A DNA stretch of 64,000 nucleotides from Patescibacteria group bacterium (GCA_019752125.1 JAIEMM010000012.1:3437-67436), one strand, 5' to 3'; positions 10,038 through 58,500 are shown, counted from the stretch's first letter. Numbers and translations are program-made. Notes: generated by a model from the sequence alone, not told the origin.

Positions 10038-12191
10038 ATGGCTGACACTAGAGACTACCCATTGGAGAAGGTTCGTAACTTCGGAATCATCGCGCACATC
10101 GATGCAGGCAAGACCACCACGTCTGAACGCATTTTGTATTACACCGGCTCACAGCACAAAATCGGCGAAGTGCACGATGGCGGAACCACCACCGACTGGA
10201 TGGAACAGGAAAAGGAGCGCGGTATCACTATCACTGCCGCTGCCATCACTTGTTTCTGGAGCCGCACCGACGAAGCAGATAAAAAAGATATCTCTAAGAA
10301 GTATCGCTTCAACATCATCGACACTCCTGGCCACATCGACTTTACCGTAGAAGTGAAGCGCTCAATGCGCGTACTCGACGGCGCAGTTTGCGTTTTCGAC
10401 GGCGTTGCCGGCGTAGAACCTCAGTCTGAAACAAACTGGCGCTATGCCGATGAAGCTAACGTGCCTCGCGTATGTTTTATCAACAAGCTCGACCGCATGG
10501 GCGCATCGTTTGAAAAATCGTACCAGTCTATTCTCGACCGCCTCACTAAGAATGCAGTTCGCATGCAGCTCCCAATTGGCGCAGAAGAAGCGCTTGCCGG
10601 CGTTGTCGACCTTCTTTCTATGAAGGCTTACAAGAACGAAGGAGCTATGGGAGACAATGTTGTCGAGATGGAAATCCCTGCAGCAATGATGGACGATGTT
10701 AAGAAATATCGCGCGGAGCTCATCGAAAAGATCGTTGAAAACGATGACCAGATGATGACCGACTACCTCGATGGCAAAGAGCCAACACTTGAAGCACTCA
10801 AGGCAACTCTCCGCAAAGCCGTTATCGCAAATAAAATTTTCCCGGTATATACCGGTTCAGCATTGAAGAACAAAGGCGTACAGCTTGTGCTCGACGCAGT
10901 TGTAGACTACTTGCCATCTCCTTTGGACATGCCGCCAGTTACAGGCACAGACCCTCGCACAGGTGAGCCAACAACTCGCACTGCGTCAGACTCTGAACCA
11001 TTCTGCGCACTCGCATTTAAACTCCAGGCAGACCCATTCGTCGGCCAGCTTACATTCTTCCGCGTGTATTCCGGTTCTATTGAAGCAGGTTCATATATCT
11101 ACAACTCAACAACGGGTTCAAAAGAACGCCTCGGCCGCATTGTGCGCCTCCAGGCAAACCAGCGCGAAGAAGTGAAGAAAGTGTATGCAGGTGAAATTGC
11201 AGCAGCAGTAGGTTTGAAGGACACAAAAACTTCTCACACGCTCTGCGATGAAGCAAATCCAATTGTCCTCGAACAAATTAAATTCCCTGAACCAGTTATC
11301 TCGCTCCGCATTGAACCTAAGACAAAAGCTGACCAGGAAAAAATGGGTATGGCTATGAAGAAGCTCGCAGACGAAGACCCAACCTTCCGCGTCTCGACTG
11401 ATACAGAAACAATGGAAACATTGATCTCAGGCATGGGTGAACTCCACTTGGAAATTTTGGTCGACCGCATGAAGCGCGAGTTCGGCGTTGAAGCAAACGT
11501 TGGTACGCCACAAGTTGCATACCGCGAAACAATTCTCCAGGAAGCAGAAGCAGAAGGTAAGTACGTCAAACAAACGGGAGGTAAGGGTCAGTACGGTCAC
11601 GTCCGTTTGCGCCTCAAACCGCTTGAACCGCTTGATCCTGAAAAGAAAATCGCAAAGAACATCACTCGCGAAGACCACTTCGAATTTATCAACAGCATTA
11701 AGGGAGGTGTTATTCCACAAGAATTCATCGGCCCAGTTGAAAAGGGTATCCGTGAAGCAATGGAGCGCGGTATCGTTGCCGGCTACAAGATGGTTGATAT
11801 CTCTGCAGAACTCTACGACGGTTCGTACCACGATGTGGACTCATCAGAAATTGCCTTCAAAATTGCAGCATCGATGGGCTTCCAGGATGCAGCTAAGGCA
11901 GCAAAGGCAGTATTGCTCGAGCCTATTATGAAAGTCGAAGTCGTTGTCCCAGAAAAATTCATGGGTGACGTTACTGGCTCTCTTTCAAGTAAGCGCGGTT
12001 CTATCGAAGGCATGGAAGAACGCGGTCTCGCACGCGCAGTTAAAGCAAAGGTGCCGCTTGCAGAAATGTTCAGCTACACCAGCGCACTCCGCTCTATGAC
12101 AGAAGGTCGCGGTTCGTTCACGATGGAATTCGACCACTACGAAGTCGTTCCGCCAAACGTTGCCGCTGAAATCATCGCCGCAAGAAAATAA
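10038..12191 (+). CDS. fusA: elongation factor G
   Basis: 717 aa, [10 protein letters not shown]-domain and full EF-G domain order. Confidence 0.95.
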
Positions 12192-12239
12192 TTATCCCCA
12201 CACACTCGCTTGTGCGAGTAGTGAAGGAGACATAGAATC

Positions 12240-13922
12240 ATGAGTAACAGGGCATCCCGGAAACGGGACGCCCTTTCTCGTATTTATTTCCTTAATTTTA
12301 TAAAAAGTTCTATGACCATTCATCGTTTGTCGCGAATATTTGCACTCGGCAATTTTGCCCTCGCTGCTGGAGTGCTGTTGGCTATGGTGATTGTCTTGCA
12401 ATCGCCCGAGACATCGTTCGCGCAGACGACAGGTACGACTGCACAAAAATCTGGTTGTGTAGCGCCTTCGTTCTATTCTTTTAATGTGCCTCCCGCTGTC
12501 CTTAACTCTCCTTGGACCTTGCCGCTGCTTTCAACGTTAGATGGAACATATGCCCCAACAGTAACTGCCACGGGCTTGGCTCCAGGCATTGAACTTCAAG
12601 ATCAAAAATCCACTATTGCTGCAGGTGGCGCCTCTCTACACATTTGGGTGCTCACTGGCACGCCGTCCCAACTAGGGACATATACAATCACCGTTACGGC
12701 TCAAAATAGCTGTGGAGGATCCTCAGCCGTCGTTACGCTCCCAGTGAATAATTCAACAGCGGCGACAGGCAGCGCGTGTCCTTCTGGTACGACAGGCACA
12801 TATCCAAACTGTGCAACAGTCCCTACAAACACAGCGTTCGATAAGACGTCTCTAGTAACTTCTACCTCAAGTCCGACAATAACCGGCACGTCAAACACCG
12901 CCAAAGTTAGTTTGGAAGTAAAGAATACTGTAGGGAATGTATATACGAGTCCGCTTGTGTCAGTGTTGAACGGGCGCTGGGCTATTCCTCTTACAAATAT
13001 TTCCACAGGCACATACTCTCTTTCTCTCTACGGAGAAAACAATTTGTTACTGATTCTCGGGACGTTAATAGCCGCAATTCCTTCTACCTCTGGTTCGGTG
13101 CCACAAATTACGTCGCCGGTGTCATCTACGGCTGCCCCCTCTGTAACCGCTTGCGCGGATTTACCTACCGCAACCATGCAGATAGGAGGGCGGGGGACTG
13201 GTGTAACAAACCTCCAAAACTTCTTGATACAAAAAGGATTGCTTCCTGAAGGTTCGGCAACTGGTTATTTTGGCCCGCTGACACGTGCGGCAGTACAGCA
13301 ATTCCAATCCAGTGCAGGCATTGTCTCGTCGGGTGATGAGAAGACAACCGGCTTTGGTTTAGTTGGCGCACGAACTCGCTCCTTGATTGCATGTCAGGGG
13401 ACTGCTCCTACAAATAGCGCACAGCAACCTACACAACGCATAAGTTGCCCATTAGTTCCACAGCCTGTCTGTGGGGTGGGGGGCACTCTTATTCCTCTTG
13501 GGTTTGATAACAATGGATGTTCGCTTGGAAAGGTGTGCCAGATGCCCGTAGGTCAAACTCAAAACATATCGTGTCCAGTCGTAAAAAACCCTTCATGTCA
13601 GTATGGGACGCTCATATCACTCGGAACTGACTATGATGGATGCTCGCTAGGTTCTTACTGCCAGCCGGCTCAATGTAGCTACATACAACAGATTACGTCT
13701 TGCCCTGCAGGACAAACTCTCGTGTCTGGGACCGACCAGTACGGTTGCCCAAACGTTTCATATTGTTCCGGCGGCTCTTCAGCTACATCCAGCGTCCCTG
13801 TCCCGGGAACCACGTGCCTCCAATCTGCGTACCAAGTGGCCAATTGCCCAGCGGGATATCATTCATCGTCCATAAACGACCTTAACGGTTGCCCTATGGC
13901 ACCTTTGTGCGTTCCAAACTAG
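12240..13922 (+). CDS. secreted/membrane-anchored protein: putative Ig-like domain + peptidoglycan-binding (PG_binding_1-like) domain + four Cys-rich repeats
   Basis: RBS gaaggaga upstream; N-terminal hydrophobic anchor; GVTNLQNFLIQKGLL...GYFGPLTRAAVQQFQ PG-binding motif; four tandem C-P..C..GTLI.LG.D..GCSLG..C modules. Confidence 0.6.
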   Translation: MSNRASRKRDALSRIYFLNFIKSSMTIHRLSRIFALGNFALAAGVLLAMVIVLQSPETSFAQTTGTTAQKSGCVAPSFYSFNVPPAVLNSPWTLPLLSTLDGTYAPTVTATGLAPGIELQDQKSTIAAGGASLHIWVLTGTPSQLGTYTITVTAQNSCGGSSAVVTLPVNNSTAATGSACPSGTTGTYPNCATVPTNTAFDKTSLVTSTSSPTITGTSNTAKVSLEVKNTVGNVYTSPLVSVLNGRWAIPLTNISTGTYSLSLYGENNLLLILGTLIAAIPSTSGSVPQITSPVSSTAAPSVTACADLPTATMQIGGRGTGVTNLQNFLIQKGLLPEGSATGYFGPLTRAAVQQFQSSAGIVSSGDEKTTGFGLVGARTRSLIACQGTAPTNSAQQPTQRISCPLVPQPVCGVGGTLIPLGFDNNGCSLGKVCQMPVGQTQNISCPVVKNPSCQYGTLISLGTDYDGCSLGSYCQPAQCSYIQQITSCPAGQTLVSGTDQYGCPNVSYCSGGSSATSSVPVPGTTCLQSAYQVANCPAGYHSSSINDLNGCPMAPLCVPN

Positions 13923-13931
13923 CCCCGCCAG

Positions 13932-13959
13932 TTGCGTTTTTGTAGTGCTTTGCTACTAT
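13932..13959 (+). promoter_or_regulatory. candidate sigma70-type promoter for tuf (TTGCGT-N16-TACTAT)
   Basis: Hexamer match by eye ~75 nt upstream of tuf ATG. Confidence 0.45.
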
Positions 13960-14032
13960 GGCTCTAACACGTACAAAAGCCGTGTTTGGCTGTGCTTAAT
14001 TATTGTGTAATTAGTATTTAACCCATTTTTGT

Positions 14033-15226
14033 ATGGCAACATTTGACAGACAAAAGCCGCACATGAACGTCGGCACCATTGGTCACGTCGACCACGGAAA
14101 AACAACGCTCACTGCGTCTATCCTCCACACCCTCGACATGCTCAAGGCAGAGGGCTACAGCTCTCGCGTTGAAGGAGTTGACGGTATCGACAACGCTCCT
14201 GAAGAAAAGGCGCGCGGTATTACTATCGCTCTCCACCACTCGGAATATGAGTCGCCAAAGCGCCACTATGCGCACATCGACGCTCCGGGCCACGCAGACT
14301 ACATTAAGAACATGATCACCGGTGCCGCTCAAATGGACGGCGCAGTGCTCGTAGTTGCTGCAACTGACGGCGTTATGCCCCAGACTCGTGAACACATCCT
14401 TCTTGCAAAGCAGGTTGGTGTGCCTAAGATCATCTGCTTCCTCAACAAAGTAGACATGGTTGATGACAAGGATCTCGTAGACCTCGTCGAAGAAGAAGTC
14501 AAAGAAGCTCTTGCAAAACAAGGCTACGCTGACGCTCCAGTTATCAAGGGTTCAGGTCTCAAGGCTCTTGAAAGCACTGACGTAAGCAGCGAATGGTCTC
14601 AGAAGGTTAAAGACCTTATCGACACCATGGACAGCTACTTCCCAGACCCAGTCCGCGAAACTGACAAGCCATTCCTTATGCCTATCGAAGACATCTTCTC
14701 TATTGAAGGTCGCGGTACGGTAGTTACAGGCCGCATTGAACGCGGTTCAGTCAAAGTAGGTGAAGAAATCGAAATCATCGGTCTCGTTCCAACTACTAAG
14801 ACCACTGTCACTGGTATCGAAATGTTCAACAAACAGCTCGAATCTGGTATGGCAGGCGACAACGCAGGTATCTTGCTCCGCGGTACAAAGAAGGAAGACA
14901 TCCACCGTGGTCAGGTTCTTGCAAAGTCAGGCTCAGTAACTCCTCACACAGACTTTGAAGCAGAAATTTACGTCCTTACAAAGGATGAAGGTGGTCGTCA
15001 CACACCATTCTTCACCGGCTACAAGCCTCAGTTCTACGTTCGTACTACGGACGTAACTGGCGAAGTAACCCTTCCTGCAGGCGTAGAAATGGTTATGCCA
15101 GGCGACACGGTTACCTTTAAGGTAAAACTTACAGCACCAGTTGCGCTTGAAGAGAAGACTCGTTTCGCAGTCCGCGAAGGCGGTAAGACCGTCGGCGCAG
15201 GTGTCGTTACAAAGATCGTTGCGTAA
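14033..15226 (+). CDS. tuf: elongation factor Tu
   Basis: [17 protein letters not shown] and full EF-Tu length. Confidence 0.95.
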
Positions 15227-41859: not shown

Positions 41860-42507
41860 ATGCATGAGATTCAAAAAGTGCTCCTCACCATCCTTCAAGA
41901 GAGGGGAATACAGGTGCTTCCACCTTTACGAAAACTTGGCGAACTGACTGGCAAGACCCTTTCCGCGCAACAGGTCAAACACCACTTAGAACAACTACAG
42001 AAGAAAGGATTTATTTCAATAGATAAAAATACAAAAAAGATTGAAATCACAGTTGGTACTGAAAAAAAATCGCAAAAACAATCTTTCTATACACTCCCGC
42101 TGTATGGCGCAGTTAACTGTGGCCCGGCCTTGAGTCTGGCAGAACAAATACCTGAGAGTTTTATAAAAATTTCTTCAAATATTCTTAAGGGTTTTAGATC
42201 CGAGAATCTTTTTGTTGTAAGGGCAAGCGGAGATTCAATGAATAAGGCTGTTGTAGGAGGTAAAAGAATTGAAGATGGTGACTTTTTAGTTGTAGATACT
42301 TCAAAAGTTAACATTCGGGGTAAGGGGGAAATAGTTCTTTCTATTATTGATGGAGCGGCAAATATTAAAAGATTATATAAAGAACAAGATTCTTTTGTTT
42401 TGGTTTCAGACTCCACTAAAGATTATCCTCCAATCTATATTTCAATAAGTGATGATTTTTCAGTAAATGGAACTGTGGTTGCAGTGATGAAAAAGCCAAA
42501 AGGATAG
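41860..42507 (+). CDS. lexA: LexA-like repressor (winged-helix N-domain + S24 peptidase domain)
   Basis: S24 Ser-Lys dyad context (ASGDSMNKA...IVLSI); LexA-type wHTH N-terminus. Confidence 0.6.
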   Translation: MHEIQKVLLTILQERGIQVLPPLRKLGELTGKTLSAQQVKHHLEQLQKKGFISIDKNTKKIEITVGTEKKSQKQSFYTLPLYGAVNCGPALSLAEQIPESFIKISSNILKGFRSENLFVVRASGDSMNKAVVGGKRIEDGDFLVVDTSKVNIRGKGEIVLSIIDGAANIKRLYKEQDSFVLVSDSTKDYPPIYISISDDFSVNGTVVAVMKKPKG

Positions 42508-42528
42508 GGCTAAAGTTCCAAGAGTAAT

Positions 42529-42726
42529 TTATCTCCCCAATAGTCTATCAATCTTTTCTTCGACGTTTCTAAATTTGTCTTCAAAGTAGCTCCATACGAT
42601 GTAGAGAATTAGACCTGCCCCTGCAAAAGTTTCTACTGTATATGAGAAACTCTGGGTGCCAGCGATAAGCCATGCTACGAGGAGAAATAAACAAATAGCC
42701 ACCCAGTTCCAAATTTTATGTTTCAT
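42529..42726 (-). CDS. small 2-TM membrane protein
   Basis: 65 aa, two hydrophobic helices; no other support. Confidence 0.3.
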   Translation of the reverse strand: MKHKIWNWVAICLFLLVAWLIAGTQSFSYTVETFAGAGLILYIVWSYFEDKFRNVEEKIDRLLGR

Positions 42727-42744
42727 GCGAATTAATTAACTGGT

Positions 42745-42895
42745 AACAAAAAGCCCGCCGCGGGTAGTGGCCGAAGCCACTCATGCAAGTTTCCCTGCAC
42801 GGCCGGTGAAGGCAGACCCCACGACGGGTTTTCTGGCCTTCACCGGACTTTCGACCTTGCCGATAGGGAAGCTATCGGGTTAGGTCCTTTTTATT
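42745..42895 (+). ncRNA. candidate structured RNA/leader with long imperfect hairpins and a terminator (42853-42895) upstream of the AbiV-like gene
   Basis: gtggc-cgaa-gccac tetraloop hairpin; ccggtgaaggc...gccttcaccgg 11-bp arms; gacc..cgatag-ggaagc-tatcg..ggtc + T-run. Confidence 0.3.
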
Positions 42896-42942
42896 CAGTT
42901 GTGCATTTATGATACGTCATTTCAGTTATTAGTAAACGATGG

Positions 42943-43638
42943 TTGAATGGAGGGGTGATTACCAACCAGAAGCTGGATAGAATGGCATTTTTGGCCTTCT
43001 GCAATGCAATTCGTTTGCACGAAGATGCGATAGAACTCTACAAGATCAAGAGCTACTCATCGGCTTTCTTTTTGTCGGTTTTGTCACAAGAAGAGATTGG
43101 GAAAATGCATTTGATAAATGATTATACTTGGCAGCGAGGCACAAGCGATGATCCAAAAGCATACGCTAAAGGTGTCGAAAAAATGTTTGTGGAAGCAATT
43201 TTTCTACATAAACTAAAGCAAGCTCATTTTTTACTAAATTCTCCCATAGAAAATAATTATTCGGCTCGTGGAAGGAGGATTATGGAAGAAGCGTGGAAGG
43301 GGGTACTGGATGGTGAAAAACAAAATGCAGTTTACGTCGGTTTTGGTAGAAAGAACGGGAAAATAGATACTTCTGGGCCAATCAAACACCCATGGCAAGT
43401 TACCGAAAAAGAAGCAGAAACTCAGATCACTAAAATGAATGATTATCTATTAGTATTTGGTCTCGGTCTTCGCTACACCAACTTCGTTTTTGAGAACGAA
43501 GATATAGAATATATGTGGAAGGGAAAAAAGTTTCTCCGTAAAATTTCGTCTCTGTGGAAGAGTTACAGCAGGTCAGCAAAGAAACAAATTAAAACTTATC
43601 AAAAACTGCTTAAAGAAAATATCGTCAACGTCTCCTGA
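42943..43638 (+). CDS. AbiV-like (HEPN-type) abortive-infection candidate
   Basis: N-terminal ...AIELYKIKSYSSAFFLSVLSQEEIGK... resembles AbiV family. Confidence 0.35.
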   Translation: MNGGVITNQKLDRMAFLAFCNAIRLHEDAIELYKIKSYSSAFFLSVLSQEEIGKMHLINDYTWQRGTSDDPKAYAKGVEKMFVEAIFLHKLKQAHFLLNSPIENNYSARGRRIMEEAWKGVLDGEKQNAVYVGFGRKNGKIDTSGPIKHPWQVTEKEAETQITKMNDYLLVFGLGLRYTNFVFENEDIEYMWKGKKFLRKISSLWKSYSRSAKKQIKTYQKLLKENIVNVS

Positions 43639-43661
43639 TAGCGTTTTATAATAAAACTAAG

Positions 43662-44198
43662 ATGACTAAAAAGAACTTGTCACAGAAAGCAAAACTCTCT
43701 CTGGAGGAAAAGGCTAAAAAGGATAAGGAATTTGGGGGTGGGGTTGGTCGTGGCAACAAGTTGGAGCGCACTCGAGGAATATTTAGGACCTGGCTATTAG
43801 TGCCAAGGAATTTCCTTGGTGCCAACGAACAAATCTTCAGGGCTCTCGGGTTTATAGATGCAGAAACTATCGAATTGTATTCAATAAAATCTCAGGCAGA
43901 ATTTGCAGAAAAGTTCGGGGTAGCCGAACCCACTCTTTCTCGCTGGAAGGGGGAGATAGAAAAAGCAGGCAATGATCTCGCCGATTTTAGGCAGGAAATG
44001 AAACACTTGAGCATCAACCTTATGGGTGCTTTGTATCGAAAGGGATTGAGTACGGGAGATCCAGCTGCTATAAAACTTTGGCTCCAAGTAATGGAGGGAT
44101 GGAATGAACGTACTGTGCACCAGGTTGATGTAAGCGGGTACCAACTCTCAGAGGAGGAAAAAGCTGAATTGGATCAACTAATGGAAGCAAACTTATAA
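43662..44198 (+). CDS. phage terminase small-subunit-like HTH protein
   Basis: SQAEFAEKFGVAEPTLSRWKG HTH and ...DPAAIKLWLQVMEGW... as in TerS (Terminase_2-type). Confidence 0.4.
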   Translation: MTKKNLSQKAKLSLEEKAKKDKEFGGGVGRGNKLERTRGIFRTWLLVPRNFLGANEQIFRALGFIDAETIELYSIKSQAEFAEKFGVAEPTLSRWKGEIEKAGNDLADFRQEMKHLSINLMGALYRKGLSTGDPAAIKLWLQVMEGWNERTVHQVDVSGYQLSEEEKAELDQLMEANL

Positions 44199-44241
44199 AA
44201 TATAAAAGTTTTATAAACAGGGGATAACCCATCAAGTTTTA

Positions 44242-44269
44242 TTGGGAAATTTTTAGTGCTTGGTATAAT
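44242..44269 (+). promoter_or_regulatory. candidate promoter (TTGGGA-N16-TATAAT) upstream of small ORF + recombinase
   Basis: Consensus -10 with TG-like extension. Confidence 0.5.
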
Positions 44270-44350
44270 TGGGTTACGAAATAACTTAAAGAGCGACCGT
44301 TCTTTAAGGCCGGTATAATCCGGAATTTGGTGGGAAGAATAGGCAAAGGG

Positions 44351-44394
44351 CCCCCAAACTCAATCTGAATTTATATTCGGACTAAGTTTGGGGG
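44351..44394. repeat. 44-bp imperfect palindrome (cccccaaact...ttata...agtttggggg): terminator or recombinase att-like site
   Basis: 10-bp perfect outer arms plus 7/10 inner matches around central TTATA; ~230 nt upstream of the recombinase. Confidence 0.35.
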
Positions 44395-44428
44395 CGTTCG
44401 TTTTCTCACCAGCGAAGCCTCCGACAAA

Positions 44429-44623
44429 ATGTTGTCGGTTGAAGAATGTAGAAAATATGTCGGTAACGACATGTCAGACAAGGAAGTGGAGAATCTTCGA
44501 GATACTCTCTACTCGTTTTCGAGCATGGTGCTCGAGGCCTACTTTGATGCCCAAAAGAGGGCGGGGAATAGTGGTTTGCTTTCGGTTCCAAAGCACGACA
44601 GCGTGAAGGAGGAAAAGAATTGA
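44429..44623 (+). CDS. hypothetical small protein co-transcribed with recombinase
   Basis: 64 aa, stop 1 nt before the recombinase ATG. Confidence 0.3.
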   Translation: MLSVEECRKYVGNDMSDKEVENLRDTLYSFSSMVLEAYFDAQKRAGNSGLLSVPKHDSVKEEKN

Positions 44624-44624
44624 T

Positions 44625-46238
44625 ATGGCAAAGAAAGCACTAATTTACTGCCGAGTATCTTCCGTTAGGCAGGCTACTGAAGGTCATGGCTTGGATGCTC
44701 AAGAACATCGATGCCGTGAATTTGCACGCGCCAAAGACTATGAAGTCGTAACTGCTTTCAAAGATAGTTTTAGCGGCGGAGGCGATTATAGAAATCGTCC
44801 TGGAATGACCAGTCTTTTGGAATATATCGATAAGTATCCACATATAGAGTTCGTGGTTCTTTTTGATGATCTTAAGCGTTTGGCAAGAGATACTATTTTC
44901 TATCTTGAACTGCTGCAGGAATTTAAAATACGAGGTGTGGCGCTTGAGAGCCCGAACATTGTTTTGGGAAATTCAGCGGAAGATGAATTTGTGCAAACTG
45001 TCCTGATGGGTGCTGCACAATTGGAACGCAAACAAAATAAACGACAAGTAGTTCAAAAAATGAAAGCACGATTGGAGAAAGGCTACTGGGCTTTTTATCC
45101 GCCTCCTGGTTACAGACAAGTGAAAGATCCTGTACATGGAAGGATATTAATCCCCACCGATGTAGAAGCCCCCATTATTAAAGAAGCCCTTGAGGGTTTT
45201 GCATCTGGCAGATTTCCGCACCTTACGGATGTAATGAATTTTCTCCGGGAGGTCGGCTTCCGTGGCCGTCCCATCTATGTAGAAGGCGTCAGGCGTTTAT
45301 TAAAGCGAATTATATATGCCGGCTATATCGAATACCCTGCATGGGATGTGGCAACTACAAAAGGTCATCACGAGGCTCTTATAAGTCTTGAGACATATCA
45401 AATTATTCAAGATCGTCTCGCTGGACGTTACAAAGCGCGTGCTCGCAAGACAGATAATCTTTATTTCGTTCTGCGAGGTTTCCTTTTGTGTGCATCTTGT
45501 AGCCATGCATATACCGGCAGCTGGTCGAAAGGGAGGAATGGTAAGTTTCGATATTACCGTTGCAACAAGCCAGGCTGCGAACGTTTAAATAAGAGCATCC
45601 GTGCAGACAAAATTGATAAGGAGTTCGAAGTATTACTCAAATCTGTTCTCCCTAAGCAAGAGATGGCGCAATTCGCCAAGGCGGTAGTCTTGGATATATG
45701 GGCAAGCAAAGTAAAAGATTTTAAAAATGATCAGGCGATGCTTGAACGACGGCTCGCGGCCATCAAGCAGGATATCGACGCTTTGTCCCGTCGCATTGCA
45801 AAGACAGTCGAAGAATCTTTAATACGTAATTACGAGCAACAGATCCTGAGTTTGACCAACGAAAGTAGGGTTTTGCAGGAGCAACTCAAGAATTTGGGTT
45901 TATCAGCAGTAAGTTTTGAAACCGCATTGGAAGTGGTCATGGCGTTTCTCAATAATCCTTTGGCTATATGGGAAAACGGCGACCTAAACGCAAAAAGATT
46001 AGTCTTGCGACTAATCTTTGCGGACAAATTGGCGTACCATCACGAACTTGGTTTTGGAACCGCTCAAAAATCCTTGCTTATAGGTCTTTTTGAGCAGGTT
46101 CATGCCAAAAAATCTCAGGATGTGGAGATGCCGGGAGTTGAACCCGGGTGCAAAGCAAATTCTTTACGCGATCTACCAAACGTAGTTCGTTCTAAGTTCT
46201 CGTCTATCTGCATCAAGAGCGAACAAAAGCGCAGATAG
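44625..46238 (+). CDS. large serine recombinase (resolvase catalytic domain + recombinase domain + zinc ribbon + coiled coil)
   Basis: ALIYCRVSSVRQ catalytic Ser; Cys cluster CASCSHAY...YYRC; 537 aa. Confidence 0.85.
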   Translation: MAKKALIYCRVSSVRQATEGHGLDAQEHRCREFARAKDYEVVTAFKDSFSGGGDYRNRPGMTSLLEYIDKYPHIEFVVLFDDLKRLARDTIFYLELLQEFKIRGVALESPNIVLGNSAEDEFVQTVLMGAAQLERKQNKRQVVQKMKARLEKGYWAFYPPPGYRQVKDPVHGRILIPTDVEAPIIKEALEGFASGRFPHLTDVMNFLREVGFRGRPIYVEGVRRLLKRIIYAGYIEYPAWDVATTKGHHEALISLETYQIIQDRLAGRYKARARKTDNLYFVLRGFLLCASCSHAYTGSWSKGRNGKFRYYRCNKPGCERLNKSIRADKIDKEFEVLLKSVLPKQEMAQFAKAVVLDIWASKVKDFKNDQAMLERRLAAIKQDIDALSRRIAKTVEESLIRNYEQQILSLTNESRVLQEQLKNLGLSAVSFETALEVVMAFLNNPLAIWENGDLNAKRLVLRLIFADKLAYHHELGFGTAQKSLLIGLFEQVHAKKSQDVEMPGVEPGCKANSLRDLPNVVRSKFSSICIKSEQKRR

Positions 46239-46548
46239 ATAAAGTTCAAGTCTTAGACAAACGGGCGAACAATCCGTTTATAGCAACTCGATGTTATAAC
46301 ACTTGATCCTTCCTCACGAGTGTTGGAAGGGAAGTGACACGTTAAGCCTTAGCGTAGGCGAACGCGAAATCATTCGCCGTGAAAAACGGCGATGCAACTG
46401 ATTTGCCAGTTAGAGTTTGGAGCAGTTTAAAGAATTACCCCAGTTCTGATTGGCAACGTAAAGAGTGGTTGCAATGTCTAGGCCTGTCATCCCCAAGAAG
46501 TTCGCGACGCTAACCCGTGCTTCTTGCAGATTTTTGACCTATTCACCT

Positions 46549-54702: not shown

Positions 54703-56055
54703 CTACTCCTCAAGCATCGTTATCTTTTTGTCTTTGTAGTTCAGTCTGCTTCGTAGGTTGGCGAGTAATTCTCTTTTGTCTGATGTGCTTCCTTCTTTGA
54801 GTAGGTACTTTGCGTATTGCCTGATATTCACATCGTCCTCCTCCACCAGTGAGTTGCCTGATTTTCCATTCACTATCTTTTGCAGTTTGTTGAATCGCCG
54901 TATTTCATCTTCGAGCTTTTGCCTCATGCCCAGCTCGTTAATATTTACGATGTCTATTATTTTCAATAGCTCATCTATCAGCTCTTCCTCACGAATGTAC
55001 TTGTTCTTGCAGTTTCTGTCTCGTGCACGACTGCATCCGTAGTAGATGTAGTGTGCCGATGTGCCGTCTTTGAGTGGTTTCCACTTCTCTTCTGCCGATA
55101 TACCACTCTGGCAGTATCCGCAGGTAAATAATTTCGTGAAGGCGAACTCTTTATTCTCACGCACTATCTGGTCGCGTTTCAGTTGTGCTTGAGCTTTCTC
55201 AAACAACTCTTGAGTGATGAGCGGTGTATGTTTGCCTTGATACCAGTTTCCACTTTCTCGCGGATATTCAAATGGTCCGTAGTAGAAGGGATTATCGAGT
55301 ATGCGGTACACACCACTTAGCGTCAGTGGTTTGTTTCCGCGTGTATGAAAGTTCAGTTCAAACTTTAGCCAGTTGTATATCTTTCTCCCCGAATAGCGTT
55401 CGTACGAGACTTTCTCGAACATTTTCTTTACTATCGGTGCGCGTAGGGTATCGACTGCAATCTGGCACTTCTTGTCCATTAACTTTTGGTTCAAGTATCC
55501 GAGTGGTGCCACCCCAGGCCATAGTCCCATCTCCACCCTCGTTCGTAGTCCGCGCTTTACGTTGATACCTCGGTTGTCATTCTCTAGCTTTGCCTGTGAC
55601 CCCAGAATCATCAACAGGAATTTCTCACTCGGGCTATTGGTGAACCGTTGTCCGAAGGTACGTATCTCCACCAATAACTTTGCGTCCATCAAGTCCACTA
55701 TCTTTCCGAGGTCGCCAGCATTTCTGCTGATACGATCTGGTGCCCACGTCAGTATTCCCGTGAACTTGCCTTGTCGTATTTCCTCGATAATCTCGTTGAA
55801 GACAGGACGTTGCCCCGTCTCTTTTGCCGAGTGTGATTCTCTCTTGATTTCGACAATCTCAAGACCCTCGCGTTCTGCGAGTTGAATCATCTCTTTTATC
55901 TGACTATCTATAGAGAGGATTTGTCGCTCCTCACTTTCGGTCGACTTTCTCGCATAGAGGCAGTACTTAATGATAGGAGCTGGCTCAGCCTGCCTCACGC
56001 CGAGGTTAGTCCTTGATGTTGTTGTTTTTTCCATACAACACAAGGAATGACGCAA
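54703..56055 (-). CDS. large serine recombinase
   Basis: 450 aa; YARKSTESEE catalytic Ser region, recombinase domain, Cys zinc ribbon, C-terminal coiled coil. Confidence 0.85.
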   Translation of the reverse strand: MRHSLCCMEKTTTSRTNLGVRQAEPAPIIKYCLYARKSTESEERQILSIDSQIKEMIQLAEREGLEIVEIKRESHSAKETGQRPVFNEIIEEIRQGKFTGILTWAPDRISRNAGDLGKIVDLMDAKLLVEIRTFGQRFTNSPSEKFLLMILGSQAKLENDNRGINVKRGLRTRVEMGLWPGVAPLGYLNQKLMDKKCQIAVDTLRAPIVKKMFEKVSYERYSGRKIYNWLKFELNFHTRGNKPLTLSGVYRILDNPFYYGPFEYPRESGNWYQGKHTPLITQELFEKAQAQLKRDQIVRENKEFAFTKLFTCGYCQSGISAEEKWKPLKDGTSAHYIYYGCSRARDRNCKNKYIREEELIDELLKIIDIVNINELGMRQKLEDEIRRFNKLQKIVNGKSGNSLVEEDDVNIRQYAKYLLKEGSTSDKRELLANLRSRLNYKDKKITMLEE

Positions 56056-56170
56056 AGCCTTCTAGGAGTCCAGAGCGTCCCAAATGCCCAAGTGTTGGTA
56101 ACTAGAACGCCGTATTTCTGCTAAGATTTTGGACTTTTCCTCGTGTAAAAATTCGGCTATACTGTTGGTA

Positions 56171-56584
56171 ATGACTTTCCAGAGCACTGCCAAAATACTT
56201 CTCCTTTTTGGACTTGCCACGTTCCTATTTTTGGGAGTCTTTGGTATGCCGCACTCGATGATCATGGGTCCGGATGGAAACATGACAATGTCGAACTGTC
56301 CGTTTATGTCGGGGCAAGCTGCTGTATGCAACATGAATCCCCTCGAACACATCGCTGCGTGGCAGAGCATGTTCACGAGCACATTCCAGCAAAATGGCTC
56401 GACCTTGATTTTGTTGCTGTTGGCCGCACTCGCCCTTGCGCTTGTTTGGACTAGATTACGATGGCCTACTTCTCAAAGAGCGCTTCGGCCGCTATTCCGT
56501 ATCGCGCGTAGAGAAACATATCTACCGCCGCCACTTCTACAGGAGCTTTTTTCAAACGGCATCTTAAATCCGAAGGTTTTCTAA
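56171..56584 (+). CDS. Met/Cys-rich membrane protein (possible Cu(I)-binding)
   Basis: TM anchor, MPHSMIMGPDGNMTMSNCPFMSGQAAVCNMNPLEH Met-rich motif, second TM. Confidence 0.4.
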   Translation: MTFQSTAKILLLFGLATFLFLGVFGMPHSMIMGPDGNMTMSNCPFMSGQAAVCNMNPLEHIAAWQSMFTSTFQQNGSTLILLLLAALALALVWTRLRWPTSQRALRPLFRIARRETYLPPPLLQELFSNGILNPKVF

Positions 56585-56653
56585 CAACGTCTTTCTGCGA
56601 CTGCACAGCTTGGTTGTGCAGTCTTTATTATTTGCAGTAATTAACGTCATTAC

Positions 56654-57379
56654 ATGGAAACCGAATCGAAAAAGTTTAGTCTCTCAACACCTGTAGCGAT
56701 AGTCATTGCCGGTGCCTTCGTTGCCGTCGCACTGTTCTTTGGTATGCGAGGGACTCCCTCGACTGGCTCATTGCCTCAACAGCCACAGGCAGCCGCACAA
56801 CAAACCGGAGACCTTGAGCAAATGAGGGCGATTACAAGTGCGGATCACATTCGAGGCGATACAAACGCACCAGTTAAAATCGTCGAGTATTCGGACCCGG
56901 AGTGTCCGTTCTGCAAGCGATTCCACGACACCATGAAGCAAATCATGGATGAATACGGCAAGGACGGGAAAGTAGCATGGGTGTACCGAAACTTTCCGCT
57001 CGATCAACTTCACCCTAAGGCCCGCAATGAGGCTACAGCTATTGAGTGTGCCGGAGAGCTCGGCGGCAATGACAAATTCTGGGCGTACGCAGACCGGCTC
57101 TACGAAGTGACGCCATCAAACAATGGACTCGATCCGATGGAACTTCACAACATCGCGCAATACGTTGGTCTTGATATGACGAAATTCAACACTTGTCTCA
57201 CAAGTAATAAGTTCTCTCAGCATATCGAGGACGATGTGCAAAATGCCACTGCAACGGGTGGCAACGGTACGCCGTGGAGTATTGTGGTCACGAAAAGCGG
57301 CAAGAAATATCCGCTCTCGGGTGCGCAGCCGTATGAGGCAGTGAAGCAGCTCATTGAGCTCGCGTTGAAGGACAAATGA
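56654..57379 (+). CDS. DsbA-like thioredoxin-fold thiol:disulfide oxidoreductase, membrane-anchored
   Basis: N-terminal TM; CPFC active site in thioredoxin-fold context. Confidence 0.7.
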   Translation: METESKKFSLSTPVAIVIAGAFVAVALFFGMRGTPSTGSLPQQPQAAAQQTGDLEQMRAITSADHIRGDTNAPVKIVEYSDPECPFCKRFHDTMKQIMDEYGKDGKVAWVYRNFPLDQLHPKARNEATAIECAGELGGNDKFWAYADRLYEVTPSNNGLDPMELHNIAQYVGLDMTKFNTCLTSNKFSQHIEDDVQNATATGGNGTPWSIVVTKSGKKYPLSGAQPYEAVKQLIELALKDK

Positions 57380-57382
57380 TCT

Positions 57383-57931
57383 ATGGAAGCATTCCGGATG
57401 GTCTTCAAAAATTGGAGATTTGCCGCTCTAGCGGCAGTCGTGAGTAGCACGGTCTTTGCTGTGGCAACCTGGCTTCCCAACACGCGTCTCTTGTGGTCCA
57501 TCTGGTCTGATGCATCGCTTCCAATCGCTGACAAACTGACATTCCCGATACGCCTACTTGAGTCGATAATCACCAACTTCACTACGCTCTCTGCGCTCTA
57601 CACGGTCGCGATTGCGCTTCTTGTAGGCATCAATATCGCATTCATTGCATATCTGATCCACCGACAACAGAAGCTTTCGCAATCTGGAGCGGTGGCCGGG
57701 ACATTCGGAATTCTCAGTGGGACTGTGGGGATGGGATGCGCCGCGTGCGGCTCGCTTATTCTTACATCTCTTCTCGGGACTGTCGGCGGAGCTGGTTTTG
57801 CAGCTGCGCTTCCCCTAAGAGGCGGCGAGTTTGGAATTATCGGTGTTGTACTTCTTAGCGCATCAACGTACTTCCTAGTAAAACAAATTACCAAGCCGCT
57901 CGTGTGCGAACCTGCAGATCTCAAAGCATGA
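57383..57931 (+). CDS. polytopic membrane protein with CAAC motif (possible DsbB/VKOR-like partner)
   Basis: 4-5 TM helices, GMGCAACGS; adjacency to the DsbA-like gene. Confidence 0.35.
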   Translation: MEAFRMVFKNWRFAALAAVVSSTVFAVATWLPNTRLLWSIWSDASLPIADKLTFPIRLLESIITNFTTLSALYTVAIALLVGINIAFIAYLIHRQQKLSQSGAVAGTFGILSGTVGMGCAACGSLILTSLLGTVGGAGFAAALPLRGGEFGIIGVVLLSASTYFLVKQITKPLVCEPADLKA

Positions 57932-58500
57932 ACACTCCATTATCAATCGCCCTTGTAATAGCAGTGCTCCTCATTGGCAGTGCATATTACTTCGGCGCGA
58001 AGCCAGCCATCGTTCCTACCCCGATTGCCAATCAAGCATTAGCAGCCAAGTTCGACATCTTAAGCAAAAACGGAAACTCGACATGCTCGGCATCGTTTGC
58101 AGATTCCATCGACACGATGCCCGATTCAGGCAGAATTCAAGGCTCCTGCTGTTCTCCGATGGATGCACACCGCTACGAAGAACAAGTGACGGGACTTAAG
58201 AAATTCAAAGACATTCCTGAAATTCCGAGCGACCCCTACGACATTGATGCGGCGCTCGCAAAGCAACTCAAAGCGTACTACGACGTAGAGCTAACACCGG
58301 AACAGCAAAAAGCATACGACTATGCGATGGCGAACTCGAATGAAAAGGGCCCCTGCTGTTGCAAATGCTGGCGCTGGTATGTCTACGGGGGCTTAGCAAA
58401 ATTACTCATCCAAAAATATCAATTCACCGGCGAACAGGTCACGGAAGTCTGGAATCTTTCAGACGGCTGTGGTGGTCCCGGCGATCACGCAAATCACTAA
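57928..58500 (+). CDS. Cys-rich secreted/anchored protein
   Basis: ATG 57928; signal anchor; CC, CCC and CGGPGDH clusters. Confidence 0.4.
   Translation: MNTPLSIALVIAVLLIGSAYYFGAKPAIVPTPIANQALAAKFDILSKNGNSTCSASFADSIDTMPDSGRIQGSCCSPMDAHRYEEQVTGLKKFKDIPEIPSDPYDIDAALAKQLKAYYDVELTPEQQKAYDYAMANSNEKGPCCCKCWRWYVYGGLAKLLIQKYQFTGEQVTEVWNLSDGCGGPGDHANH

What the first reader, a model, noticed from the sequence alone, without database searches (positions are those of the whole stretch)
13440..13919. Four tandem Cys-rich modules at the C-terminus of the fusA-tuf intervening protein
Four ~30-aa modules fit the pattern (I/T)SCP..(x)C..GTLI.LG.D..GCSLG..C, with four Cys each. They follow a PG_binding_1-like domain and an Ig-like Thr-rich region. 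This looks like a disulfide-stabilised repeat I do not recognise. It may be a cell-wall-anchored binding or adhesion module.
Basis: seen in the sequence. Interest (0 to 1): 0.5.

Follow-up and report, generated by a model that had tools for sequence, protein, structure and literature searches.

The report
Undescribed four-cysteine repeat in wall-binding protein
The gene wedged between the translation-factor genes fusA and tuf encodes a secreted, cell-wall-binding surface protein of an ultrasmall (Patescibacteria) bacterium, and its tail carries four copies of a small four-cysteine module that is real and conserved in at least about 110 fetched proteins from environmental bacteria, but is absent from the domain and structure databases searched and has no known function.

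Summary
A profile built without this protein or its five closest orthologues finds exactly these four modules (25-42 bits each). Shuffled controls reach 14 bits at most, against 130 for the real tail.

All 12 Cys of modules 1-3 are invariant in 20 orthologues. A profile search of 1.84 billion proteins gave 561 hits; about 90 of the top 150 are full-length modules in 2-17 tandem copies. Nearly all fetched carriers start with a signal peptide or lipobox, and 33 of 79 carry PG_binding_1, always upstream of the modules.

No Pfam, NCBIfam or PDB sequence model covers the module, and fold searches found nothing significant. AlphaFold gives one module pLDDT 92.7 as a beta-hairpin.

My best reading is a disulfide-stapled extracellular hairpin repeat forming a stiff, wall-proximal rod beside the peptidoglycan-binding domain. 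Oxidation state, disulfide pairing and ligand are untested. This is a new domain family of a familiar kind, of moderate interest.

The parts
12240..13922 (+). Whole ORF (560 aa plus stop) between fusA and tuf. The conserved start is probably ATG 12312 (M25, 536 aa).
   Evidence: One search lists the ORF. The NCBI protein P0001 is 100% identical, 536 aa, named 'peptidoglycan-binding protein [Patescibacteria group bacterium]', and the orthologues start at the equivalent of M25. A GAAGGAG Shine-Dalgarno-like motif precedes 12240. A terminator-like hairpin at 12263-12281 lies between the two ATGs.
12312..12422 (+). N-terminal signal peptide or membrane anchor (MTIHRLSRIFALGNFALAAGVLLAMVIVLQSPETSFA|Q).
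   Evidence: Read from the sequence. Orthologues keep a basic n-region, a 20-residue hydrophobic stretch and an AXA-like motif. No signal-peptide predictor was available.
12423..12749 (+). Conserved N-terminal beta-rich domain (PKD/Ig-like) with the Cys pair C73/C158.
   Evidence: Weak PKD hit at aa 139-169, E 3e-4 to 1e-3, below the cut-off. Mean identity 0.60 over 14 orthologues.
12777..12812 (+). Two-Cys loop CPSGTTGTYPNC (C180-C191).
   Evidence: It is conserved in orthologues and present three times in P0012.
12828..13028 (+). Big_13-like Ig domain (sub-threshold).
   Evidence: Pfam Big_13, E 3e-4 to 1.4e-3, 19.5-21.6 bits against a cut-off of 27.
13191..13334 (+). PG_binding_1 peptidoglycan-binding domain, flanked by C305 and C385.
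   Evidence: PF01471, E 2.8e-10, 40.7 bits against a cut-off of 23. Mean identity 0.64 over orthologues.
13440..13541 (+). Cys module 1 (aa 401-434; C403, C411, C427, C433).
   Evidence: Leave-out HMM 37.5 bits. AF2 single-module model has pLDDT 92.7 with a beta-hairpin.
13566..13664 (+). Cys module 2 (aa 443-475; C445, C453, C468, C474).
   Evidence: Leave-out HMM 41.7 bits.
13671..13769 (+). Cys module 3 (aa 478-510; C479, C488, C503, C509).
   Evidence: Leave-out HMM 34.5 bits. Its four Cys are invariant in 20 orthologues.
13812..13913 (+). Cys module 4 (aa 525-558; C526, C536, C551, C557). It is divergent and optional.
   Evidence: Leave-out HMM 25.5 bits. It is present in only about half of the orthologues, with mean identity 0.25. 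The linker before it has pLDDT below 50.
10038..12191 (+). fusA (EF-G), upstream neighbour.
   Evidence: The same synteny is seen in 4 of 4 orthologous loci.
14033..15226 (+). tuf (EF-Tu), downstream neighbour.
56654..57379 (+). Membrane-anchored DsbA-like thiol-disulfide oxidoreductase (CPFC). A candidate oxidant for the module cysteines, but not linked to the gene.
   Evidence: Thioredoxin_4 E 4.9e-26 and DSBA E 5.8e-14. Sequence.

Best explanation
The gene encodes a secreted or membrane-tethered surface protein of a Patescibacteria (CPR) bacterium. Its layout is: signal/anchor, two Ig-like domains, PG_binding_1, then four copies of an undescribed 31-33-residue module (C-P-x6-C-x2-G-x5-G-x-D-x-N-G-C-x5-C).

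Each module is predicted to be a beta-hairpin closed by a D-x-N-G turn. I infer that two disulfides staple it to its proline-rich N-terminal arm. Copies are joined by short linkers, so a tandem array would form an extended, stiff, protease-resistant rod.

In CPR proteins the array always sits directly downstream of the peptidoglycan-binding domain. The most likely job is therefore a wall-proximal stalk or secondary wall contact, which positions or reinforces the PG-bound protein in the envelope.

Shown here: the repeat, its conservation, its spread, its extracytoplasmic context, its coupling to PG_binding_1, and the absence of any known family match.
Inferred only: oxidised cysteines, the rod-like arrangement, and the wall-related role.
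For: - Repeat reality: leave-out HMM and shuffles.
- Selection: all 12 Cys of modules 1-3 are invariant in 20 orthologues at 36-83% identity. Modules 1-3 (0.59-0.61) are nearly as conserved as PG_binding_1 (0.64), while linkers are at about 0.2.
- Family size: 561 cluster representatives at E<=1e-3 and 107 at E<=1e-10. All four Cys are present in 316 of 316 full modules.
- Extracytoplasmic location: signal-peptide-like or lipobox N-termini in nearly all fetched carriers, by my reading of the listed N-termini. The protein has an even 22 Cys. A DsbA-like gene is in the window.
- Fold: the single-module AF2 model has pLDDT 92.7, with strands 17-19 and 31-33. The four-module model is confident within modules only (pTM 0.28).
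- Rod-like arrays: the C4-to-C1 linker has a median of 7 residues, 70% are 12 or fewer, and arrays reach 17 copies.
- Wall link: PG_binding_1 in 33 of 79 representatives, and upstream of the modules in 47 of 47 cases, with the first module starting a median of 50 residues after the GYFG..T..AV..FQ motif inside PG_binding_1.
Against: - No experiment or model coordinates were available, so the disulfide state and pairing (C1-C3/C2-C4 or C1-C4/C2-C3) are unknown.
- In this protein nothing follows the modules, so they are not a spacer between two functional domains here.
- Some relatives appear to consist of a leader plus modules only (e.g. P0096, P0105, P0079, P0123; sequences). That implies the module has a function of its own, such as binding.
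- AF2 gives no fixed inter-module geometry.
- No residue apart from the Cys, G, D and N-G turn residues is conserved family-wide. That says little either way about a ligand.
Confidence: 0.5

Rival explanations
1. The modules are themselves a ligand-binding or adhesion unit. They could bind glycan strands, other envelope polymers, or the surface of a host cell, with PG_binding_1 supplying a second contact.
For: - Proteins that appear to be made only of a leader plus modules exist (sequences), so the module is likely to be self-sufficient.
- The protein evolves fast (40-71% identity) between neighbours that are 89-99% identical. This is typical of exposed interaction proteins.
- Secreted proteins with a peptidoglycan-binding domain are among the most highly expressed genes of cultured Paceibacteria and were proposed as host-attachment factors (PMC10936435).
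Against: - No conserved aromatic or charged surface position exists across the family. Only the Cys and turn residues are near-invariant.
- There is no match to any carbohydrate-binding or adhesin family.
- Homology of the paper's proteins to this one was not checked.
Confidence: 0.27
2. The four cysteines of each module coordinate a metal (a Zn, Cu or Fe Cys4 site) instead of forming disulfides.
For: There are four invariant Cys per 31 residues. From general knowledge, many CPR bacteria live in anoxic settings and lack quinones for a classical DsbB. No DsbB or VKOR partner was found beside the DsbA-like gene.
Against: - The spacings C-x7-9-C and C-x5-C are not CxxC-type metal knuckles.
- Nearly all fetched carriers are exported, including lipobox proteins that I take to be from double-membraned bacteria.
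- No zinc-ribbon or rubredoxin model hits the modules. The only such hit is a chance-level Zn_ribbon_TiaS match, E 0.47.
- The non-module Cys also come in conserved pairs.
Confidence: 0.08
3. The modules are small disulfide-rich protease-inhibitor-like domains that protect the envelope.
For: Single family members also carry a Kunitz_BPTI domain (P0134, E 2.7e-9) or a weak Pacifastin hit (P0124, E 6e-4).
Against: Those hits lie outside the modules and occur in only 2 of 79 proteins. There is no sequence or fold match to any inhibitor family, and no conserved reactive-loop-like position.
Confidence: 0.04
4. It is a very divergent member of an already described Cys-rich family (DUF4215/Myxococcus Cys-rich repeat, TNFR CRD, VWC, EGF-like) that HMMER and Foldseek cannot connect.
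For: - A faint DUF4215 hit on the module region of P0024: E 0.097, 13.4 bits against a cut-off of 27.
- The top, non-significant, Foldseek hits are DR5 and CD40 TNFR CRDs, VWF C4 and the Meckelin CRD.
Against: - All of these are at chance level: E 0.7-6, TM-score normalised to the query (TMq) no higher than 0.40 among all listed hits and 0.37 or lower for these.
- The one significant DUF4215 hit in the family (P0191, aa 363-391) lies outside that protein's modules at 167-269.
Confidence: 0.08

Closest known systems
Extracellular disulfide-rich tandem modules of eukaryotes (TNFR cysteine-rich domains, VWC, EGF-like)
   Same: They are small (30-40 aa) beta-hairpin modules held by intramodule disulfides. 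They are strung in tandem with short linkers into rods on extracellular proteins. The best, non-significant, Foldseek neighbours are DR5, CD40, VWF C4 and Meckelin.
   Different: - There is no sequence-HMM hit and no significant structural match.
- This module has four Cys, not six.
- Its signature (C-P...P-x-C, G, D-x-N-G-C) is different.
- It is bacterial and coupled to PG_binding_1.
DUF4215 (PF13948) / Myxococcus cysteine-rich repeat
   Same: It is a bacterial, secreted, four-Cys repeat of roughly 30-45 residues with a 'DGC' before the third Cys. That description is from general knowledge of the family. One faint hit fell on P0024.
   Different: The Pfam model does not match the window modules at E<=10. 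It also misses relatives with 8-17 copies at E<=1. In P0191, DUF4215 and the modules are separate regions.
SprB repeat (PF13573) of Bacteroidota gliding-motility giants
   Same: It shares the local strand-turn motif '...T-V-T-D-A-N-G-C'. This matches profile positions 12-28 and accounts for about 60 of the top 150 profile hits.
   Different: - Only half of the module aligns.
- The C-P...C arm and the fourth Cys are missing.
- The repeat period is about 70 aa in P0072.
- The window protein gives no SprB hit.
I treat this as a shared supersecondary motif, not as membership.
PG_binding_1-containing surface proteins of Patescibacteria
   Same: The architecture class is the same: signal peptide, PG_binding_1, and Ig/PKD domains. 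Such proteins are highly expressed in cultured Paceibacteria (PMC10936435).
   Different: That paper does not mention cysteines (0 occurrences), and none of the papers found describes the module. Homology of those proteins to this one was not tested. Their gene context differs: fusA abuts tuf in Ca. Yanofskyibacterium.

Membership tests
PG_binding_1 (PF01471) | Pfam HMM score above the gathering threshold | tested here: met
   40.7 bits against a cut-off of 23, E 2.8e-10, aa 318-365. 41.6 bits on the shorter construct.
DUF4215 (PF13948) / Myxococcus Cys-rich repeat | The Pfam or NCBIfam model matches the module region at or above the cut-off | tested here: not met
   No hit at E<=10 on the window C-terminus. 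P0024 scores 13.4 bits against a cut-off of 27. In P0191 the DUF4215 hit lies outside the modules.
TNFR CRD / VWC / EGF-like | Sequence-HMM match, or a significant structural superposition with the same disulfide topology | tested here: not met
SprB repeat (PF13573) | Full-length match to the SprB repeat model | tested here: not met
   No SprB hit on the window protein. The similarity is limited to profile positions 12-28.
Proposed new family: four-Cys hairpin module | Four invariant Cys at C-x7-9-C-x14-15-C-x5-C | tested here: met
   All four window modules fit. 316 of 316 full modules in the family keep all four Cys.
Proposed new family: four-Cys hairpin module | Conserved G after Cys2 and a D-x-N-G turn before Cys3 | tested here: met
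   G15 and D23 are conserved in over 90% of 76 modules. Modules 1-3 have G...D-x-x-G-C. Module 4 keeps N-D-L-N-G-C.
Proposed new family: four-Cys hairpin module | Extracytoplasmic carrier protein (signal peptide, lipobox or membrane anchor) | tested here: met
   N-termini listed. This rests on heuristic reading only, with no predictor.
Proposed new family: four-Cys hairpin module | Two intramodule disulfides | not testable with these tools
   The AF2 output gives no coordinates. No Cys-loss variants exist from which to infer the pairing.
DsbA-like oxidoreductase (ORF 56654-57379) | Thioredoxin fold with a CxxC motif, and an export or anchor signal | tested here: met
   Thioredoxin_4 92.3 bits and DSBA 52.7 bits. 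A CPFC motif and an N-terminal hydrophobic segment are visible.

The most novel reading that the evidence does not exclude
In one Adlerbacteria-related CPR lineage a surface-protein gene has been inserted into the str operon between fusA and tuf. It may therefore be made at ribosomal-operon levels as a major envelope or host-attachment protein. In this reading, the PG_binding_1 domain and the new four-Cys modules grip peptidoglycan, possibly that of a host cell, as the physical basis of the episymbiotic lifestyle.
Probability: 0.12. Interest if true: 0.6.

Novelty: new variant of a known kind. Interest (0 to 1): 0.35.

Why it matters
The cell envelopes of Patescibacteria, and the way these bacteria attach to hosts, are largely unknown. 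This module adds a definable domain family that databases have not annotated. It has hundreds of sequence clusters and a confident predicted fold. It is tightly coupled to the peptidoglycan-binding domain in CPR surface proteins, and in this lineage it sits inside one of the most strongly expressed operons. A Pfam-style model would annotate many 'hypothetical' secreted proteins. It would also give a handle for binding assays, antibodies and cryo-ET labelling of CPR surface structures. Even so, it remains one more small Cys-rich extracellular repeat, not a new principle.

Tried and rejected
- Word-index homology search with the C-terminus alone found nothing. Only the full-length query found orthologues.
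- A PDB sequence search with the C-terminus and with the module profile gave only chance or short 'PxCPxG' hits in collagen IV NC1.
- The module alignment was too short for the search for homologous proteins.
- The orthologue alignment had no stretch conserved enough for a genome scan.
- The single-protein genome scan returned only one locus.
- The window protein and P0001 are not on record in the contig index, so the source assembly was not identified.
- I looked for module variants lacking pairs of Cys to deduce the disulfide pairing. None exist.
- I tested whether DUF4215 is the same family. It is not.
- The partial profile hits in giant proteins turned out to be SprB repeats.
- No DsbB or VKOR partner was found next to the DsbA-like gene.
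- Literature searches found no description of the module.

Full report
**What is at the coordinates.**
The window has an ORF at 12240-13922 (+), 560 aa. It lies between fusA (10038-12191) and tuf (14033-15226), followed by rpsJ and rplC. An identical 536-aa NCBI protein starts at the second Met (12312). It is named 'peptidoglycan-binding protein [Patescibacteria group bacterium]', and all orthologues start at the equivalent position. ATG 12240 has a GAAGGAG motif upstream. However, a terminator-like hairpin (12263-12281) lies between the two ATGs. I take 12312 as the likely start and list both.

The mature protein reads as follows:
- a basic and hydrophobic leader with an S-F-A|Q site
- a conserved beta-rich domain (weak PKD hit)
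- a CPxGTxGTYPNC loop
- a weak Big_13 Ig-like domain
- PG_binding_1 (E 2.8e-10, above Pfam's cut-off)
- the Cys-rich tail

**Checking the observation.**
The tail has 16 Cys. In modules 3 and 4 the 'SCP'/'NCP' cysteine is the second Cys, not the first.

A profile HMM was built from 60 modules of other proteins, excluding this protein and its five closest orthologues. It recovers exactly four modules, at aa 401-434, 443-475, 478-510 and 525-558, with scores of 37.5, 41.7, 34.5 and 25.5 bits. No other module occurs in any frame of the window. Two thousand shuffles of the tail, which keep its 10% Cys, never exceed 13.8 bits, against 129.5 for the real sequence. None shows three or more regex modules.

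**Conservation.**
Twenty-two proteins share the architecture. In an alignment of 20 C-termini at 36-83% identity, all 12 Cys of modules 1-3 are invariant, along with P, G and D positions. Module 4 is present in about half of them.

Mean identity to the window protein over 14 orthologues is:
- 0.59-0.61 for modules 1-3
- 0.64 for PG_binding_1
- 0.60 for the N-terminal domain
- about 0.2 for the linkers
- 0.25 for module 4

Modules 1-3 are therefore a selected core, and module 4 is a variable add-on.

**A wider family.**
An alignment of 76 modules (A1) has four invariant Cys, with G15 and D23 above 90%. Searched against 1.84 billion cluster representatives, it gave 561 proteins at E<=1e-3 and 107 at E<=1e-10.

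About 60 of the top 150 match only profile positions 12-28. These are SprB-repeat giants of Bacteroidota ('TVTDANGC'), which I set aside as a shared local motif.

The rest match the full module, in 2-17 tandem copies. One example is P0069, whose cluster includes a named Deltaproteobacteria MAG protein. Its repeat reads 'CPMYxxxMPxCxDGxIxxGGFDxNGCPLPPxC'.

Among the 112 fetched proteins that carry at least one full module:
- 316 of 316 full modules keep all four Cys.
- Nearly all fetched carriers begin with a signal peptide, a lipobox or a membrane anchor, by my reading of the listed N-termini.
- The C4-to-C1 linker has a median of 7 residues.

**Known families.**
Pfam-A and NCBIfam find nothing on the modules. 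This holds at E<=10 for the window tail and at E<=1 for relatives with 4 or more copies, including those with 8-17. The only trace is a chance-level DUF4215 hit on P0024 (E 0.097). The single significant DUF4215 hit in the family lies outside that protein's modules.

PDB sequence searches give nothing real. AlphaFold2 with the module alignment gives pLDDT 92.7, with a hairpin at strands 17-19 and 31-33 and bridges at 22 and 28. The four-module model is confident only within modules (mean pLDDT 67.8, pTM 0.28). This suggests beads on a string with no predicted packing.

**Context and co-occurrence.**
Of 79 full-match representatives, 33 carry PG_binding_1 and 14 carry PKD. Other domains (CAP, Endonuclease_1, Kunitz and so on) are singletons. 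Wherever a PG_binding_1 motif is present it precedes the modules (47 of 47). The first module starts a median of 50 residues after the GYFG..T..AV..FQ motif inside PG_binding_1.

The fusA-X-tuf placement recurs in all four orthologous loci with enough flank. EF-G is 89-95% identical and EF-Tu 93-99% identical, while X is only 40-71% identical. A more distant module protein, P0024, lies elsewhere. In Ca. Yanofskyibacterium, fusA abuts tuf directly (PMC10936435 supplement). The insertion is therefore lineage-specific.

That paper reports secreted proteins with a peptidoglycan-binding domain among the most highly expressed genes of cultured Paceibacteria. It proposes a role for them in host attachment. 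I did not test whether those proteins are homologous to this one.

A membrane-anchored DsbA-like protein (CPFC) is at 56654-57379. It is 43 kb away, and no DsbB or VKOR partner was recognised.

**Interpretation.**
What is shown: a real, conserved, exported four-Cys tandem module. It is undescribed in the libraries searched and is coupled to PG_binding_1 in CPR bacteria.

What is inferred: each module carries two disulfides that staple a hairpin to its Pro-rich arm, and arrays form stiff, protease-resistant rods. Next to PG_binding_1 they would act as a wall-proximal stalk or second wall contact.

The main rival is that the module itself binds a ligand, such as a wall polymer or a host surface. 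Proteins that appear to consist only of modules, and the gene's fast evolution, favour this reading. Metal binding, protease inhibition and cryptic membership of a known family are less likely, for the reasons given under the rivals.

**Verdict.**
This is a new domain family of a familiar kind, a small extracellular Cys-rich repeat. It is useful for annotation and for the study of CPR envelopes. It is not mechanistically surprising on present evidence.

Noticed in passing
window 10038-15226; loci L001, L002, L003, L005: A surface-protein gene is inserted in the str operon between fusA and tuf. The placement is conserved in 4 of 4 orthologous loci. The insert is only 40-71% identical, while its neighbours are 89-99% identical. 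The insertion is absent in Ca. Yanofskyibacterium, where fusA abuts tuf.
   Followed up: partly
window 12224-12312: The start codon is ambiguous. ATG 12240 has a GAAGGAG motif 9-10 nt upstream. However, orthologues and NCBI start at ATG 12312, and a terminator-like hairpin (12263-12281, followed by a T-run) lies between the two.
   Followed up: partly
window 12777-12812: A separate conserved two-Cys loop, C-P-x-G-T-x-G-T-Y-P-N-C, sits between the two Ig-like domains. It is present in orthologues and repeated three times in P0012.
   Followed up: no
proteins P0072, P0076, P0106 (not in the window): The module profile's central strand-turn (positions 12-28, 'G..x..TD.NGC') matches the 'TVTDANGC' part of SprB repeats. 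This produces E-values down to 1e-39 in giant Bacteroidota proteins. It is a shared local motif, not a full-length match.
   Followed up: partly
proteins P0033, P0047, P0048, P0051, P0056, P0070 (not in the window): There is a second, different Cys repeat of roughly 55-60 aa ('C.FNGQTV.NG.S..AYQ......G..C.SQ.RTC.NGTLSG.YQY..C'). It occurs in other PG_binding_1 proteins. Pfam was scanned for P0047 only and found no family on it.
   Followed up: no
window 42000-46300 and 54703-56055: Two large serine recombinases are present: 44625-46238 (+) and 54703-56055 (-), each with Resolvase, Recombinase and Zn_ribbon_recom hits. A low-GC stretch (0.40-0.44 at 42-46 kb) lies nearby. This may be an integrated mobile element.
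   Followed up: no
window 56129-58500: The DsbA-like gene (56654-57379) is flanked by uncharacterised genes. One is a membrane protein with a GCAAC motif (57383-57931). Another is a Cys-rich protein (57904-58500, containing 'CCCKCWRW'). Neither has a Pfam match, and no DsbB or VKOR was recognised.
   Followed up: partly
locus L003 2814-3821: In the genome carrying P0022, a second gene lies between fusA and the orthologue. It is 335 aa, with weak PG_binding_1 and PKD_4 hits. That lineage therefore has two inserted surface-protein genes.
   Followed up: no
locus L007 5001-5789: The module protein P0085 (Paceibacteria UBA918 contig) lies immediately upstream of the ATP synthase operon. The highly expressed peptidoglycan-binding-domain protein in PMC10936435 (PMX_810_sub_00350) is also next to a gene labelled 'ATP synthase subunit b'. 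This may be coincidence.
   Followed up: no
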